IMG/VR virus record: IMGVR_UViG_2706796059_000001
Source of the DNA: a virus
Taxonomy: Duplodnaviria; Heunggongvirae; Uroviricota; Caudoviricetes; Straboviridae
Length of the DNA stretch: 64,000 bases
Reading direction: 5' to 3' (one strand)
Part shown: one piece after another, positions 12,268-56,760 of the stretch
Layout of the letters: every line of letters begins with the position of its first letter
Position numbering within the stretch: position 1 is the stretch's first letter
The notes under the pieces: model-generated
The model's input: the letters and a program-made list of their open reading frames with translations, nothing else
Database searches by the model: none
What the model was told of the DNA's origin: nothing
Translations under genes and position numbers: made by a program

Positions 12268-12507
12268 TTATTTATATGTCTGGTTATCAACCCATTGCTT
12301 GAGTTCTGGAAGATGACCTATGTATGTATCACCATGCATAGCAAGAGGCACGCGAATGTTGCGCACCCCACCAAGTTTCTCATGCAATTTATCGATATCA
12401 GATTGAGACTGTAACTCTATTACAGTGTACGGGACGTTTTTGAACTTACAGAGGGAAATTGCGTGACGACAGCCGTCACAGTTGGGAATTGTGTATATCG
12501 TTATCAT
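12268..12507 (-). CDS. Glutaredoxin/thioredoxin-like protein
   Basis: IYTIPNCDGC, VP, YIG motifs. Confidence 0.85.
   Translation of the reverse strand: MITIYTIPNCDGCRHAISLCKFKNVPYTVIELQSQSDIDKLHEKLGGVRNIRVPLAMHGDTYIGHLPELKQWVDNQTYK
12269..12276 (-). promoter_or_regulatory. T4 late promoter TATAAATA (overlaps glutaredoxin stop)
   Basis: Exact consensus upstream of 24-like, 55, 481 aa gene and methyltransferase. Confidence 0.75.
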
Positions 12508-12525: not shown

Positions 12526-12555
12526 ATTATACGTCTGCCAAGGTGGTTATTAAAC
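12526..12555 (-). promoter_or_regulatory. GTTTA-class promoter
   Basis: GTTTAA-N18-TATAAT. Confidence 0.65.
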
Positions 12556-12563
12556 AAATCTTA

Positions 12564-12624
12564 CTAATACTTCTAATATTACTAAAAGCACTAATACTAC
12601 TAAGATGAGACGGAATTTTTCCGC
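12564..12624 (-). repeat. Copy A of dyad plus 9-bp direct-repeat element
   Basis: CTAA at 12564, 12573, 12582, 12591, 12600 (9-bp period) next to CGGAA-N3-TTCCG dyad; near-identical inverted copy at 55332-55392. Confidence 0.9.
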
Positions 12625-12631
12625 TCAAACC

Positions 12632-12656
12632 AAAAAAAAAAGCCCCTTTCGGGGCT
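12632..12656 (-). terminator. Rho-independent terminator after SprT-like gene
   Basis: agcccc-gaaa-ggggct followed by long T-run (minus). Confidence 0.85.
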
Positions 12657-12674: not shown

Positions 12675-13502
12675 TTATAAACCGTGAGATTTTTTGAAAG
12701 TGTCTAGACGCTTTTCGATTGTGTGAGCTTCTAGTTCAATAATGATGTACCAATCTTTGTATTTACCACGCTGTTCAAATGACACTGACTTACAACCTTT
12801 GTGAGTAGTATTCATTACGATTTCTGCGATTGCGTCACGAGCAGCTTGACCACGTGCGTTTACTTTCTTAGCAGGCTTAGGCGCTTCAGCTTTCTTTTCA
12901 GCTTTCGGTGCAGGTGCTGCTACAGGTTCAACTGCTTTAGTATTTTCAGCTTTCTTAGCTTCGTGATCTGCTTTGATAGCGTTGAATGTTGATGTTGCAA
13001 CGCAACGAAGTTGACCTTCAGTTTCAGCTTTACGACCTTTCACGTATAGAGACTTGATGTGTACTGGTTGAAAACGCTTAGTCAAACGATCTGTTTTCTG
13101 AACTACTTCAATTTCACCTTGAGCGTTTTCGAAGAAAACAACGTACTTGCTATCTACAGCATCAGGGTTAGATACAGTTGAGCAACGCTTTGCATCGCCA
13201 CCTAGTTGACGGTGTACACGCTTCCAGATAGCACCGTGACCACGTTCGTTGTAATCAGTGTAAGCAATCGCGTGAGCCATTTCGTGAGTGATTGTGATGA
13301 TTTGCTCTTCTTTAGTACGAGCGTTCAAGAATTTTTCAGAAAGACGTAGTGTTTTAGTACGGTAGTTACAATCACCTAGTGCAGCTTTACGTTTTGAAAA
13401 TTCGAATGACCAACCTTCTGCAATCAGATCGCGCTTCATCAAGTTGTTACCAGACATAAGGTCGATTGCGATAGCTTTCATTTCTGCTTTAGTGATTGTC
13501 AT
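12675..13502 (-). CDS. SprT-like zinc metalloprotease domain protein
   Basis: LGDC, ITHEMAHA (HExxH), HGAIWK; Ala/Lys/Pro linker. Confidence 0.85.
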   Translation of the reverse strand: MTITKAEMKAIAIDLMSGNNLMKRDLIAEGWSFEFSKRKAALGDCNYRTKTLRLSEKFLNARTKEEQIITITHEMAHAIAYTDYNERGHGAIWKRVHRQLGGDAKRCSTVSNPDAVDSKYVVFFENAQGEIEVVQKTDRLTKRFQPVHIKSLYVKGRKAETEGQLRCVATSTFNAIKADHEAKKAENTKAVEPVAAPAPKAEKKAEAPKPAKKVNARGQAARDAIAEIVMNTTHKGCKSVSFEQRGKYKDWYIIIELEAHTIEKRLDTFKKSHGL

Positions 13503-15901: not shown

Positions 15902-15905
15902 TCGA

Positions 15906-15931
15906 AAAAGGGAGCAATTTGCTCCCTTTTT
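15906..15931. terminator. Bidirectional terminator
   Basis: aaaagggagcaa-t-ttgctccctttt between convergent genes. Confidence 0.85.
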
Positions 15932-16818
15932 TATTCAACTCTAATAAGACTATGACCCCAAACTTCTTCAAAGTCGCTTACCTTTTCAACCATGTAAAGT
16001 GTGTTGTAGTCAAGAATCAGCATTTTACCATCTTCTAGAATCGCGCCCTTCTCTAGTAATTCAGCTTCTCCATCACCACCCCATGCAGGTTTAGCAATAA
16101 TAGTACCTAGCAGACTTTCCCATATTTCAACCGTGTCTAAATTATCAAATTTATTACCATTGATTGATGCTTTAATTTGAACTGTTTTATCATTAACTCG
16201 TTTGATTGTAGCGAACCCATTTGTCATACGAATCAATTCAAAATCACCAGGTCGTTCACACTCAAATAGCGTCGCCCATGTGAATGCGTTCACTCTAGGG
16301 AAATCAACATATGTGATCTCATCTTCGACTTTAATACCATCATTTGGTAGTCGTCTAATTTCATTAGATGGGTTGTTGTTTTTTAATACAAACATACGCC
16401 CGTGCGTTTGTAAAGTATAGTCCATCTGCTTTGCGTATCGTTCAGCCATGCGCTTGTAAAGATTATAGCGTTTCTTTGCATCTCTGTCGTCATGGTCTGC
16501 AAATGCGCTGAATGTAATGTAATCTGGGTTTTCTCGTTTAGCCTTGTCAAACGTAGCTGCAAGCACCGTACTCATTACCATCAATGAATCTTTCGCGTTG
16601 CTCGATTTCTTTAATTCATATGAATACTGACCATCTGGTCTTTTCCACATAAATGAAACGTCAATTATGCGTCCGCGTGCTTCATCTTTGCTAGTTATGA
16701 TTGCTTTATACATAGTCCCGCCGATTTCAAAAAACGCTTCGTCGTCGGTCAGCCAGTCATAATTCGCTGCTCTATCAAACGCTTCAAATAGCGCGTCATA
16801 TCCCTCGAATATAATCAT
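15931..16818 (-). CDS. Hypothetical late protein with EAFDR domain
   Basis: TATAAATA upstream; N-terminal domain paralogous to C-terminal half of 61231..62151. Confidence 0.75.
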   Translation of the reverse strand: MIIFEGYDALFEAFDRAANYDWLTDDEAFFEIGGTMYKAIITSKDEARGRIIDVSFMWKRPDGQYSYELKKSSNAKDSLMVMSTVLAATFDKAKRENPDYITFSAFADHDDRDAKKRYNLYKRMAERYAKQMDYTLQTHGRMFVLKNNNPSNEIRRLPNDGIKVEDEITYVDFPRVNAFTWATLFECERPGDFELIRMTNGFATIKRVNDKTVQIKASINGNKFDNLDTVEIWESLLGTIIAKPAWGGDGEAELLEKGAILEDGKMLILDYNTLYMVEKVSDFEEVWGHSLIRVE

Positions 16819-19547: not shown

Positions 19548-19583
19548 ATGATAATGAAAAGGGCTGCAAATTGCAACCCTTTT
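19548..19583 (-). promoter_or_regulatory. Terminator hairpin overlapping sigma70-type promoter
   Basis: TTGCAA-N17-TATCAT within aaaagggttgcaa-t-ttgcagccctttt. Confidence 0.6.
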
Positions 19584-48896: not shown

Positions 48897-51800
48897 ATGT
48901 CAGAATTCCGCAGAGCATTTCGTGCGTCAGGTCTTGATGCAAGTGGTCAGAATGTCATTAACGTAGCAGACCCACGAGCAAATGAATTGTTCGACGGTAT
49001 TAACCAAGGCTACTTTATTGAAGAGAACACTGTTCAAGAGTATGACCCAACACGAGATCACTATAAAGTAGACTTTATCGTTGAGTTCAATCAACGTCTA
49101 TACAAAAACATTACCGAAATCAATGCACCTGAACCTTTTGACTCGCAGAAGTGGCAGAAAATGCGTACCGACCCTGAATGGGAAGATACTGATTCATCGG
49201 TAGGCGCAAACGTCGGTGACTTCTTGTTGTTAACAGCAAGCTCGGCAATCACTATTACACTGCCTGAAACACCATTAACAGGTGACACAGTTACAATCAA
49301 AGACGGTAAAGGCGTTCTTACAACTTACCCTTGTACGATTGCAGCAGCGGGCGGCTTGACGATTCAACATTACGCCATTGACGGTTCAATTGAGTCTAAA
49401 CCGAGTATTTCATTCAATACCCCTAACAGCACTATATTCTTAGTGTACAACGGTATTGCATGGACATATCAGATCAATCAAGAGTTATACAATACGTATA
49501 TTGACGACAGTCACCCAACTCAACAGGGTGGGTACTTATCAACTGGTGGTTATTTCACTAACGTTGGCGAGACAGTCACATATGACGGTTCAGTTAAGAA
49601 AATTGCAATTTCTGTACCACTGAACCCGAACGTGGGCGATACAATTCATCTTAAAGATGTTGCGTATCTTGAGAATCAAACGTCGATTCAAATCGGTGTG
49701 AACCCGACTGCTACGGGTCAGGTTATTCAAGACCCTATTTCAGGCGAACGTAGTTCTGTTATCAGTCTTGATACTATCGGCGGCGCTGATATCACATTTA
49801 TCGATGACAACGGTACTGGCGTATGGGTAATCACAATCGCGAACAACCCGCATTTATGGAACTATGTCGGGGATTCAAGCGCGGTTGAATTGAAGCCTCG
49901 TTCTCGTTACGCTATCGAAATCGCAGATGCTGTTCCTGCAATGACGATCACACTACCAGAAAAACCAGCCGATGGTGACTGGATTGAGATCTCACACAAC
50001 AAAACAGCTCATAAGAAAGTAACGATTCAAGTTCATCCGAATTTCGGTGATGATGACCCAGGTCACGGCCCCGATGAATACAAAGTATTCTTGGACTTTG
50101 AAACATATCGTTATCAAAAATACCGTCATTACGTTGATTTCGTTCCATTCTTCGTTGAATCATTCGAAATTAGTGATTATGACAGCGGTTATTCACTAGT
50201 TCTATACTACGACGCGAGTCGTAAAGTATGGTCGTTCGGTAACATCGCGACTCGTATCGATATCGCTGATGAACTATACCGTAAACGCCCGGGTATCGTG
50301 CCATTAGCTGACCCAACGGAAGCTCTAGCACACGGGATTGAATATGCGCACCCTGAAGATGCAGCAGACCCTTGGGCTGATCAAAACCCACTGAAAGATC
50401 ACGTAATCACGGTAGAGACGCTTGACGCTCGTCGTGCAGGTGAACAGCAAGTCGGTATGGCTCGTGTTGCTACTCTTGGAACTGATGAAGCTCTTGAAGA
50501 ATCGCGTTCTGGTACGTTTGTTCGTTACCCAGATACAAACTTCAGACATGATCTGTTCATAACACCACGTAGCTTGAATGCGCGTACAGCAACTGAAACA
50601 CGTCGCGGTGTAGTTGAAATCGCAACTCAAAACGAGACGCGAAGCACAACTAACGATGTTCAAGTTCTAACACCGATGAAATTCCACGCTGCACAAGCTG
50701 AAGAAGATCTAACAGGTGTTGCGAAACTAGTCGAAGCGTCGAACAACATCAATGCTGGTGGTATTGTTACATCAACAGCGAATATGCGTTCAGACCGTTC
50801 AGTAAATGGTATTGACAATACAGTATATGATAAAACTGATCATCTGCGTATCGTAACGCCTAAAATGCTTGATGAGTATCGCGCTACAGAGAATCAACCT
50901 GGTACATTATGGATTGCTAAGAGTAGTGAACTTCGCATCAACGACTCAACAGTTGATAACGCGATCATCACGCCTAAGAAATTAGCAGCGTGGAAAGCAA
51001 GCTCAACGGTTCGTGGTATTGCTCGTTCTGCTACACAATCTGAAGCAAATGCAACAACAGGAACTGGTGAATCGTGGACAACAGTCTTCATCACACCAGA
51101 AACGTTGAATAGCAGAACAGCAACTGAATCACGTCGTGGTGTTGCTGAAATCGCCACCCAAACTGAAGTTGACTCAGGTACAGACGATACTCGTATTGTT
51201 TCACCACTTAAACTGAAGACATGGCTTGACCGTGATCATTTCGTGACAGCAGGAACAGATGGTCTATCGCATACTGGTACAGTATGGGGCGACGTTACAT
51301 TCAGCATCGCGTCAGCGACTGAAACACAACGTGGTACACTACAAGTTGCGACTCAAGCAGAAGCGAATGCTCAAACTGGTGCGCTTGATGATGTAATAAT
51401 CACACCACAGAAGTTAAATGCGCGTCGTGCTACAGAAACACAAACTGGTATTGTACGTCTTGCAACTCAAGCTGAAGTAGAAGCGGCTACGGCAAGTACT
51501 GAAATTGTTGTTACCCCTAGTGATTTGCTTCACTGGACTAGATACTCTGATAGTTCACGTGCAAATGAAGCTCGATACGGTAATGTACAAATTGCAACGC
51601 CAGCAGAAACGTTCGTAGGTAACAGCACAGACGGTTCAACGCAAGCATATACTTCGTACTTGCGCGTTCCATATGCAGTATCACCTTACGGGTTACACTA
51701 TGCATTGCGTAACTACTTGCCATTAAACGCTAAAGCTGATGACTCAGAATTACTAGATGGCTTGAACAGTACACAATTTGCACGCAGTGACGTTTCAGAT

Positions 51801-55282: not shown

Positions 55283-55305
55283 AAGAGCCCTTCGGGGCTT
55301 TTTTT
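55283..55305 (+). terminator. Terminator after gene 35
   Basis: agccc-ttcg-gggct plus T-run. Confidence 0.85.
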
Positions 55306-55331
55306 ATACGCGAAGCGAAAAACGGTAAGAG

Positions 55332-55401
55332 GCGGAAAAATTCCGTCTCATCTTAGTAGTATTAGTGGTTTTAGTGATATTAGAAGTATTAGAGGGATTA
55401 G
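55332..55401 (+). repeat. Copy B of dyad plus 9-bp direct-repeat element
   Basis: CGGAA-N3-TTCCG dyad; TTAG at 55353, 55362, 55371, 55380, 55389, 55398. Confidence 0.9.
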
Positions 55402-55402
55402 T

Positions 55403-55432
55403 GTTTAAGCAACCAATGATGAAATGTATACT
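55403..55432 (+). promoter_or_regulatory. GTTTA-class promoter for uvsY
   Basis: GTTTAA-N18-TATACT. Confidence 0.65.
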
Positions 55433-55450: not shown

Positions 55451-55864
55451 ATGAAGCTACAAGATTTAAAAATTGAATATCACGAAGACGTGAAAATTGA
55501 CACAACTGCTTTAGAAACAGCAGCTATTCGAATTCCCGTTCTTCATGCGAAGTGGCTTGCATACCGAGCCGATGCAAGACAACTACTTATCAAAGCTGAA
55601 ATGAAAATGGAAGCTGTGAGAAAAGACCGCTGGCTCTTTTATAGCGGCAAACATGACGATGAAGTTTGTGATTTCATCGTAGAAAAGAGTGAAATGAAAT
55701 ATGCTCTTGCGGGTGATGAATATCTTCAACGTGCAATTGCTACTTTTCAACACATGAAAGATGTGTTATCATTCATCGAAGAAGCTTTGAAAGGCATTAG
55801 TCAAATGGGCTTCACAATCAAACACATTATTGACAACAGAAAAATTGAGAGTGGTATAGTATGA
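55451..55864 (+). CDS. uvsY: Recombination mediator UvsY
   Basis: IPVLHAKWL, FYSGK, KSEMK, GFTIKHII. Confidence 0.92.
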   Translation: MKLQDLKIEYHEDVKIDTTALETAAIRIPVLHAKWLAYRADARQLLIKAEMKMEAVRKDRWLFYSGKHDDEVCDFIVEKSEMKYALAGDEYLQRAIATFQHMKDVLSFIEEALKGISQMGFTIKHIIDNRKIESGIV

Positions 55865-56726: not shown

Positions 56727-56755
56727 AAAAAAAGGGAGCAAATTGCTCCCTTTTT
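56727..56755. terminator. Bidirectional terminator
   Basis: aaaaaagggagcaa-a-ttgctcccttttt between convergent genes. Confidence 0.85.
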
Positions 56756-56760
56756 CGTAT

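What the first reader, a model, noticed from the sequence alone, without database searches (positions are those of the whole stretch)
12526..12656. Duplicated dyad plus 9-bp iteron module (copy A; copy B at 55283-55432): candidate replication origin or regulator array
Seen: gcggaaaaattccgtctcatcttagtagtattagtg(c/g)ttttagt(a/g)atattagaagtattag occurs at 55332-55392 (+) and reverse-complemented at 12564-12624, with two mismatches over 61 nt, 43 kb apart. Read in transcription direction, both loci have the same architecture: terminator, CGGAA-N3-TTCCG dyad, five or six TTAG cores at exact 9-bp period, GTTTAA-N18-TATA(A/C)T promoter, gene. No other intergenic region in the window has it. Established: T4 origin-dependent replication starts at promoters including ori(uvsY), and oriE has iterons. 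Inference: a protein-bound iteron array marking origins or a co-regulated promoter pair.
Basis: partly seen in the sequence, partly recalled or inferred. Interest (0 to 1): 0.82.

Follow-up and report, generated by a model that had tools for sequence, protein, structure and literature searches.

The report
Six-copy TTAG repeat module, KVP40-like phages
The two look-alike stretches are real and belong to a family of six strictly conserved, direction-locked non-coding modules (small hairpins plus a 9-base TTAG repeat) kept at the same six places in all KVP40-like Vibrio phages. They are good but unproven candidates for the phage's replication start sites or for the docking sites of an unknown regulator.

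Summary
The window is from a KVP40-like T4-type Vibrio phage. The two copies lie upstream of an nrdH-like gene and of uvsY. They are two of six orthologous copies per genome, found in 47 Vibrio phage records and some marine metagenome contigs, and in no bacterial genome.

Each module has:
- usually an intrinsic terminator
- a GCGAAGC-type mini-hairpin
- a 6-9 bp hairpin with an AAA loop
- TCATC
- 5-7 units of TTAG plus five bases, at an exact 9-bp period

TTAG is unchanged in 241 of 243 units. Spacers almost never carry C on the gene-sense strand. The hairpin shows compensatory and top-strand wobble changes. All copies point the way the local genes do.

An early-type promoter usually follows, but at varying distance. 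One copy is fused to a lipoprotein gene's ribosome site instead. Each array is the local minimum of duplex stability.

These phages have AsiA but no MotA, and the T4 ori(uvsY) features are not met. The module is neither coding nor a known RNA family.

My best reading (about 0.35) is protein-bound origin or unwinding sites. The rivals are a regulator operator array, an RNA element and a PeSL-like cassette. The scan had already noted the same array on other windows.

The parts
12641..12656 (-). Copy A: intrinsic terminator of the upstream SprT-like gene, followed by a T-run (+ strand A-run about 12631-12640)
12607..12626 (-). Copy A: hairpin (core CGGAA-AAA-TTCCG, extended stem with one bulge). 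This copy has no GCGAAGC box
12550..12603 (-). Copy A: five TTAG+5 units at an exact 9-bp period, plus a degenerate sixth unit (TTTGTTTAA) that contains the -35-type GTTTAA
12526..12555 (-). Copy A: early-type promoter GTTTAA-N18-TATAAT in front of the nrdH-like glutaredoxin gene (12268-12507)
55286..55306 (+). Copy B: intrinsic terminator after the gp35-like tail-fibre gene, with T-run
55309..55317 (+). Copy B: CGCGAAGCG box (GC stem with G..A loop, or an AGCG direct repeat)
55329..55349 (+). Copy B: 9-bp hairpin GAGGCGGAA-AAA-TTCCGTCTC with one G.T pair
55353..55406 (+). Copy B: six TTAG+5 units at an exact 9-bp period; the last unit overlaps the -35-type GTTTAA
55403..55432 (+). Copy B: early-type promoter GTTTAA-N18-TATACT in front of uvsY (55451-55864)

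Best explanation
The module is a cis-acting DNA element read by a multimeric protein that steps along the TTAG array every 9 bp. The small hairpins next to it act as a strand-specific landmark.

The six copies most likely mark the phage's fixed initiation or unwinding sites. They would be the KVP40-lineage counterparts of T4's several dispersed origins, one of which also lies at uvsY.

Proposed mechanism (inferred, not shown):
1. The TA-step-rich array is the easiest local place to melt.
2. Binding of a phage factor opens it. At most copies, negative supercoiling behind the adjacent early promoter would help.
3. The hairpins form on the gene-sense strand and give a fork-like junction for helicase and primase loading.
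4. Forks then start in the direction of local transcription.

Shown here: the family, its anatomy, conservation, polarity, strand asymmetry and low duplex stability. Not shown: protein binding, melting or replication.
For: - **Copy number and spread.** There are six copies per genome, 26-56 kb apart, at the same six gene junctions: nrdH, an early promoter ahead of an acidic 177-aa ORF and a DNA methyltransferase, a lipoprotein gene, gene 3/1, gene 12/wac and gene 35/uvsY. This holds in G001, KVP40, nt-1, D480 and VS2. 47 records carry the module, most with six places.
- **Repeat core.** TTAG is unchanged in 241 of 243 units, and the 9-bp period has no indel in 42 copies. This argues for a reader with a fixed step.
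- **Specific pairing of parts.** The hairpin motif occurs only beside arrays.
- **Hairpin support.** 86.5% of cells pair, against 38-53% when the partner columns are slid. There is a CGG/CCG to CCC/GGG double change, and U.G or G.U variants that pair only on the top strand. In F86 a new hairpin replaces a broken one.
- **Polarity.** All six copies are co-oriented with the local gene blocks.
- **Low duplex stability.** Each array is the stability minimum within +/-400 bp and lies in the least stable 0.0-0.6% of genome windows.
- **Likely untranscribed.** Most copies lie between a strong terminator and a promoter.
- **T4 parallels.** T4 has at least five dispersed origins, mostly in late-gene regions and dependent on nearby promoters. 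oriF lies at uvsY and oriE has evenly spaced repeats (PMC3016281). Four of the six modules sit at early promoters inside late-gene regions.
- **Concerted evolution.** The copies within a genome evolve together, as expected if they share one reader.
Against: - There is no direct evidence of initiation, melting or binding.
- About 100 other loci in the genome are as unstable as the arrays.
- GC skew follows transcription and shows nothing at the modules.
- T4 origins share no motif, and in T4 the unwinding element lies downstream of the promoter. Here it lies upstream.
- The lipoprotein copy has no promoter, and its array carries the SD and start codon.
- The 1.081.O wac copy lacks the early promoter.
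- No initiator candidate was identified. There was no HUH Rep match, and the only RHH match is sub-threshold.
- Some hairpins are degenerate (F86 L209, 1.081.O L211, metagenome L270).
Confidence: 0.35

Rival explanations
1. The array is an operator for a phage DNA-binding regulator. This could be a functional substitute for the missing MotA, or a repressor or insulator. It would coat the TTAG units and switch the adjacent early-type promoters and, at one locus, a ribosome site. The result would be a small co-regulated set: uvsY, gene 1, nrdH, the methyltransferase operon, wac and the lipoprotein gene.
For: - G001 has AsiA (E 1e-46). G001, KVP40 and nt-1 lack both MotA domains, while the T4 control is positive. 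PMC2988021 raises the question of a MotA analogue.
- uvsY and gene 1 are middle-mode genes in T4 (my own knowledge).
- At the uvsY and nrdH loci the last unit is fused to the -35 in a register kept across genomes. At wac the spacing is about 16 nt in most genomes.
- The fixed 9-bp step and invariant TTAG and the concerted evolution also fit.
Against: - The distance from array to -35 varies by 23-30 nt between genomes at the gene 1 locus.
- Two copies have no promoter.
- Five promoters are very few for a middle-mode class.
- 16 other GTTTAN-N18 matches lack the module.
- The hairpins and the strand-specific wobble changes are left unexplained.
- No regulator was found.
Confidence: 0.25
2. The module is an RNA element, made by read-through or as an operon leader. 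A hairpin is followed by UUAG repeats. These could be bound by an RNA-binding protein or used as an RNase E entry site, controlling translation or decay of the downstream message.
For: - The copies are co-oriented with transcription, 6 of 6.
- At the lipoprotein locus the module is certainly inside a transcription unit, and the SD and start lie in units 5-6 in a conserved register.
- Wobble variants pair only on the sense strand.
- The sense strand folds far better than the antisense strand as RNA: -24.9 and -22.7 kcal/mol (z -3.1 and -4.2) against -8.8 and -9.6.
- The unit junction RN/WUU resembles the RNase E consensus (my own knowledge).
Against: - At least four of six copies (five in some genomes) lie directly after strong intrinsic terminators and before the promoter, so they should rarely be transcribed.
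- There is no Rfam match.
- The array's self-pairing uses U.G pairs that never change to Watson-Crick pairs, so pairing is not what is selected.
- No TRAP or HutP homologue was found.
Confidence: 0.15
3. The module is a PeSL-like regulatory cassette. Its main evolutionary role would be as a homology patch for recombination and gene shuffling, or as a passive transcription insulator, kept uniform by gene conversion.
For: - PeSLs (stem-loop, AT-rich stretch, early promoter, SD) are described in nt-1 and KVP40 (PMC4122927).
- Paralogues within a genome (0.80-0.87 identity) are closer to each other than to orthologues in divergent genomes (0.74-0.81).
- G001 locus 2 carries the hairpin variant and box of locus 4, and this changes the C-terminus of the upstream ORF relative to KVP40.
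- nt-1 has a different gene behind the locus 3 module.
- 1.081.O has a tandem duplicate.
Against: - Gene conversion alone cannot hold TTAG invariant or keep six orthologous sites across genera.
- Four sites lie in conserved core or late regions, not hyperplastic regions.
- The text of the PeSL papers available to me does not mention a 9-bp TTAG period.
Confidence: 0.12

Closest known systems
T4 oriF = ori(uvsY) and oriG, the R-loop origins (Kreuzer and Brister review, PMC3016281)
   Same: One copy sits directly upstream of uvsY. It lies next to a promoter, inside a late-gene region, and is one of several dispersed sites. Its polarity matches uvsY transcription.
   Different: The T4 element is a MotA-dependent middle promoter plus a downstream A+T-rich unwinding element, with no upstream array or hairpin. 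These phages have no MotA. The low-stability segment lies upstream of an early-type promoter. T4 origins share no common motif, whereas all six sites here do.
T4 oriE 12-nt evenly spaced repeats, and classical iteron origins (lambda, R6K)
   Same: Both have evenly spaced direct repeats near an early promoter. In T4 the function of these repeats is also unproven.
   Different: The unit is 9 bp with a 4-bp invariant core, contiguous and off the helical phase. There are six dispersed copies rather than one cluster, and no initiator gene is known.
PeSL / PmSL cassettes of T4-type phages (Arbiol 2010; Comeau 2014, PMC4122927)
   Same: Both are repeated intergenic cassettes with a stem-loop, an AT-rich stretch, an early promoter and an SD. 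Both show signs of recombination between copies.
   Different: PeSLs are numerous, lie in hyperplastic regions and flank variable ORFs. This family has six fixed orthologous sites, an exact TTAG periodicity and a second, covarying hairpin.
Short contiguous-repeat operators bound by ribbon-helix-helix proteins (omega 7-bp heptads, MetJ 8-bp boxes); my own knowledge
   Same: Both are arrays of very short direct repeats without gaps, upstream of or over promoters, read cooperatively.
   Different: No RHH protein was found above the family cut-off. Those operators have no flanking hairpins, and their sites are not dispersed six-fold around a lytic phage genome.
TRAP / HutP NAG-triplet RNA operators; my own knowledge
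   Same: Both have a regularly spaced UAG-containing repeat. One copy overlaps a ribosome site, as TRAP sites do.
   Different: The period is 9 nt rather than 5-7. Five of six copies lie outside obvious transcripts. No TRAP or HutP homologue was found.

Membership tests
T4-type R-loop origin (oriF/oriG) | MotA-dependent middle promoter (MotA box near -30) | tested here: not met
   The promoters are -35-type GTTTAA-N18-TATAAT/TATACT. MotA_activ and MotCF are absent from G001, KVP40 and nt-1 but found in T4.
T4-type R-loop origin (oriF/oriG) | A+T-rich unwinding element just downstream of the promoter | tested here: not met
   The stability minimum is the array, upstream of the promoter. Only 18 nt lie between the -10 and the uvsY ATG.
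T4-type R-loop origin (oriF/oriG) | Position at the uvsY promoter | tested here: met
T4-type R-loop origin (oriF/oriG) | Drives replication or forms a persistent R-loop in infected cells | not testable with these tools
   This needs wet-lab work or read-coverage data.
Iteron-type origin | Evenly spaced direct repeats | tested here: met
   Exact 9-bp period in 5-7 units, with no indel in 42 copies.
Iteron-type origin | Repeat unit of about 12-22 bp, each binding one initiator domain | tested here: not met
   The unit is 9 bp with a 4-bp invariant core.
Iteron-type origin | Cognate initiator protein | tested here: inconclusive
   Only a few families were tried. There is no Phage_GPA match and the RHH match is sub-threshold. 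Most phage ORFs were not examined.
PeSL cassette | Stem-loop directly upstream of an early promoter with SD and start | tested here: met
   True at four or five of the six loci.
PeSL cassette | Many copies, concentrated in hyperplastic regions beside variable ORFs | tested here: not met
   Exactly six copies at orthologous sites. Four lie in late or core regions.
Known RNA families (Rfam 15) | Match to a covariance model | tested here: not met
   The best hit scored 26 bits against a gathering score of 60, E 0.22.
TRAP/HutP-type triplet-repeat RNA operator | NAG triplets with 2-4 nt spacers in a transcribed leader, plus the cognate protein | tested here: not met
   The period is 9 nt. Only one of six copies is clearly in a leader. 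No TrpBP or HutP match.
Small protein-coding gene | Conserved ORF with start and stop across copies | tested here: not met
   Open frames across the array start and end at different places in the 42 copies.

The most novel reading that the evidence does not exclude
All six modules are the replication origins of KVP40-like phages, defined by one shared sequence read by a dedicated, still unknown initiator or loader. This would be the first T4-type phage group with a common, sequence-defined origin motif. A second novel reading, not excluded, is that the array is the DNA site of the long-sought MotA substitute in AsiA-only phages.
Probability: 0.3. Interest if true: 0.8.

Novelty: new variant of a known kind. 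Interest (0 to 1): 0.6.

Why it matters
Replication origins and middle-mode control are unmapped in T4-type phages outside T4. KVP40-like phages are known to have AsiA without MotA.

A short, invariant and easily mutated motif present at exactly six conserved sites, one of them at uvsY, gives a concrete handle on both questions.

These phages are also widely used against Vibrio in aquaculture, so knowing their replication and control sites has practical value.

Tried and rejected
- **Small peptide gene (Leu/Val-rich frame):** rejected, because there is no conserved start or stop.
- **Known RNA family:** none found.
- **Array hairpin as the selected feature:** the sense strand can self-pair through U.G pairs (80% of cells). 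But TTAG never changes to stronger pairs, and RNAalifold keeps only the 6-bp hairpin.
- **GC or AT skew as an origin signal:** skew only tracks gene direction.
- **Host-derived element or satellite copy:** no match in 185,579 species' genomes.
- **Wider distribution:** in IMG/VR the anchored pattern hit only KVP40. The unanchored five-unit pattern brought up unrelated tandem repeats. The metagenome scan gave 105 loci, of which only 6 were true modules.
- **GCGAAGC as a general genome motif:** the other 43 occurrences appear to lie within ordinary coding sequence (judged by eye) and none adjoins an array.
- **HUH Rep, TRAP and HutP:** absent. The RHH match is sub-threshold.
- **Analogous array upstream of uvsY in Aeromonas phage P19:** there is no intergenic space there.
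- **Helical phasing of array to promoter:** not kept at the gene 1 locus.
- **Literature:** the KVP40 genome paper (PMC180978) is not held.

Full report
**Observation.**
The two loci are as described. The repeat finder reports one inverted pair, 12554-12624 against 55332-55402, 71 nt long and 92% complementary. The 61-nt core differs at two positions. Four TTAG cores at 9-bp spacing occur only at these two places in the window, and in none of 100 shuffles. The perfect CGGAA-N3-TTCCG dyad also occurs only there.

Copy B lies between a gp35-like tail-fibre gene and uvsY. Copy A lies between a SprT-like gene and an nrdH-like glutaredoxin gene, which is followed by gene 24 and gene 55 homologues.

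**What the genome is, and how many copies it has.**
The window is about 99-100% identical to Vibrio phages phi-Grn1, VH7D and PVA23, which are KVP40-like T4-type phages. The window's own assembly is not held. The nearest complete record, G001 (246,964 bp), has exactly six arrays, at 13.85, 69.40, 120.77, 146.68, 172.74 and 215.50 kb. This holds even with a relaxed three-unit criterion, and the hairpin motif occurs only beside arrays.

KVP40, nt-1 (a different genus), D480, VS2, V09 and CZ01 also have six arrays each. F86 has five. 1.081.O has seven because of a tandem duplication. In the phage collection, 47 Vibrio phage records carry the module, and most show six places. Six further true modules came from marine metagenome contigs. 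None was found in bacterial or archaeal genomes.

The six sites are orthologous. They lie upstream of:
- nrdH
- an early promoter that precedes an acidic 177-aa ORF and a DNA methyltransferase
- a lipoprotein gene
- gene 1 (after gene 3)
- wac (after gene 12)
- uvsY (after gene 35)

**Anatomy.**
Read in the direction of the flanking genes, a full module has these parts:
- an intrinsic terminator, at four or five of the six loci
- a GCGAAGC-type box. Its variants GCGCAGC, GCGTTAGC, GCGTCAGC and GCGATAGC keep the GC flanks and the G..A loop ends. The box is missing at the nrdH locus.
- 12-16 purine-rich bases
- a hairpin with a 6-9 bp stem and an AAA loop
- TCATC
- 5-7 units of TTAG plus five bases

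In a 42-copy alignment without gaps, TTAG is unchanged in 241 of 243 units. The five spacer positions read D-R-D-W-W. C makes up 2% of spacer bases and G 22%.

The hairpin pairs in 86.5% of cells, against 38-53% when the partner columns are slid. Two pairs show double changes (CGG/CCG to CCC/GGG). Single changes are mostly C-to-T or A-to-G on the 5' arm, which still pair as U.G or G.U on the gene-sense strand but would mismatch on the other strand. In F86 a broken hairpin is replaced by a new one that reuses one arm. The variants are few and can move between copies by conversion, so this is moderate evidence for a structural, strand-specific constraint, not strong evidence.

**Context.**
All six copies point the same way as the local gene block. 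An early-type promoter follows in most cases. At uvsY and nrdH the last unit is fused to the -35 in a register kept in all lineages. At wac the gap is about 16 nt. At gene 1 it ranges from 23 to 30 nt between genomes. The 1.081.O wac copy has no early promoter.

At the lipoprotein locus there is neither terminator nor promoter. The upstream ORF ends inside the module, the SD lies in unit 5 and the start codon in unit 6. In nt-1 a different gene follows the same junction. GTTTAN-N18 promoter matches number 20 in G001, and four of them are next to modules.

**Physical properties.**
Each array is the duplex-stability minimum within +/-400 bp and falls in the least stable 0.0-0.6% of 54-bp windows. 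The six rank 3, 6, 11, 25, 67 and 77 among about 102 comparably unstable loci.

As RNA the sense strand folds much better than the antisense strand: -24.9 and -22.7 kcal/mol (z -3.1 and -4.2) against -8.8 and -9.6. This is because TTAG and the consensus spacer pair with themselves through G.U. However, TTAG never mutates towards stronger pairs, and the consensus fold keeps only the short hairpin. As DNA, both strands keep only the two small hairpins.

**Evolution.**
Orthologous copies are closest between near relatives (0.92 against 0.85 for non-orthologues). In divergent genomes, paralogues within a genome (0.80-0.87) are closer to each other than to their orthologues (0.74-0.81). The family therefore evolves in concert, either by conversion or by tracking one shared reader.

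**What it is not.**
- It is not coding.
- It is not a known RNA family.
- It is not a T4-type oriF. T4 has a MotA box, a -10 element and a downstream element with two CCAATAACAA repeats, with nothing upstream. These phages lack MotA but have AsiA, in agreement with PMC2988021.
- It is not a classical iteron set, because the unit is only 9 bp.
- It is not a typical PeSL (PMC4122927), although it shares that general layout.

**Interpretation.**
A fixed 9-base step, an invariant 4-base core, a landmark hairpin at a fixed offset, strict polarity and concerted evolution together point to one sequence-specific multimeric reader. Placement between a terminator and a promoter favours action on DNA. 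The hairpin changes and the C-avoidance suggest that a single-stranded or extruded form matters.

T4 has several dispersed origins in late regions that depend on nearby promoters (PMC3016281). Earlier unchecked notes of this scan report other lineage-specific multi-copy elements at uvsY in other T4-like phages. On that basis I rank origin or unwinding sites first (0.35). Next come a regulator operator array, possibly for the MotA substitute (0.25), an RNA element (0.15) and a PeSL-like cassette or insulator (0.12). None of these is demonstrated.

**Limits.**
- The 47 genomes represent perhaps seven or eight independent lineages.
- The search for a reader protein covered only a handful of families.

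Noticed in passing
G001 91256-91510 (locus L345); G001, KVP40 and nt-1 whole records: AsiA is present (E 1e-46). Both MotA domains are absent from G001, KVP40 and nt-1, while T4 is positive. This confirms the AsiA-without-MotA state of this clade.
   Followed up: yes
L216 (Vibrio phage 1.081.O, gene 3 / gene 1 junction): The whole module (box, hairpin, array) is tandemly duplicated, with array starts 164 bp apart. No promoter is evident in the stretch read between the two copies.
   Followed up: partly
L001 against L053 (locus 2 in G001 and in KVP40): The G001 copy carries the CCCAA/TTGGG hairpin and the GCGAAGC box of the gene 1 locus. This changes the last residues of the upstream ORF (KKSEAK* instead of KKEQ*), an apparent gene conversion between copies.
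   Followed up: partly
L058 (nt-1, about 51.3 kb): Behind the 'lipoprotein-locus' module, nt-1 has a different gene (it starts MIRTNQ...). The ATG is still inside the array, at the edge of the PeSL-rich 51-56 kb variable region described for nt-1.
   Followed up: no
window 12675-13502 (-): A 275-aa ORF upstream of copy A has an HEMAH zinc-protease motif (SprT-like) and a lysine/alanine-rich linker. No function is assigned in KVP40 (KVP40.0061).
   Followed up: no
window 15903-15932 and 56728-56757: A near-identical 30-nt GC hairpin flanked by A- and T-runs (a bidirectional terminator type) is repeated 40.8 kb apart. A third, weaker copy lies at 19557-19583.
   Followed up: no
window 50556-51471: Three 76-nt direct repeats (64-78% identity), spaced 531 and 309 nt apart, inside a long tail-fibre-region ORF. 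They look like internal domain repeats.
   Followed up: no
L253, L270, L292 (marine metagenome contigs): Divergent modules here have an extra GTGCC-GAAG-GCAC hairpin between box and main hairpin. They are embedded among repeated promoter-like blocks (TTGAAA...TATACA). L270 has a non-complementary chimeric hairpin near its contig end.
   Followed up: partly
L001 1631-2744 (G001 locus 2, downstream of the module): The TTGACA-N17-TACTAT promoter drives an acidic 177-aa ORF (possibly anti-restriction-like, not tested), followed by a DNA methyltransferase. KVP40 leaves the 177-aa region unannotated.
   Followed up: no
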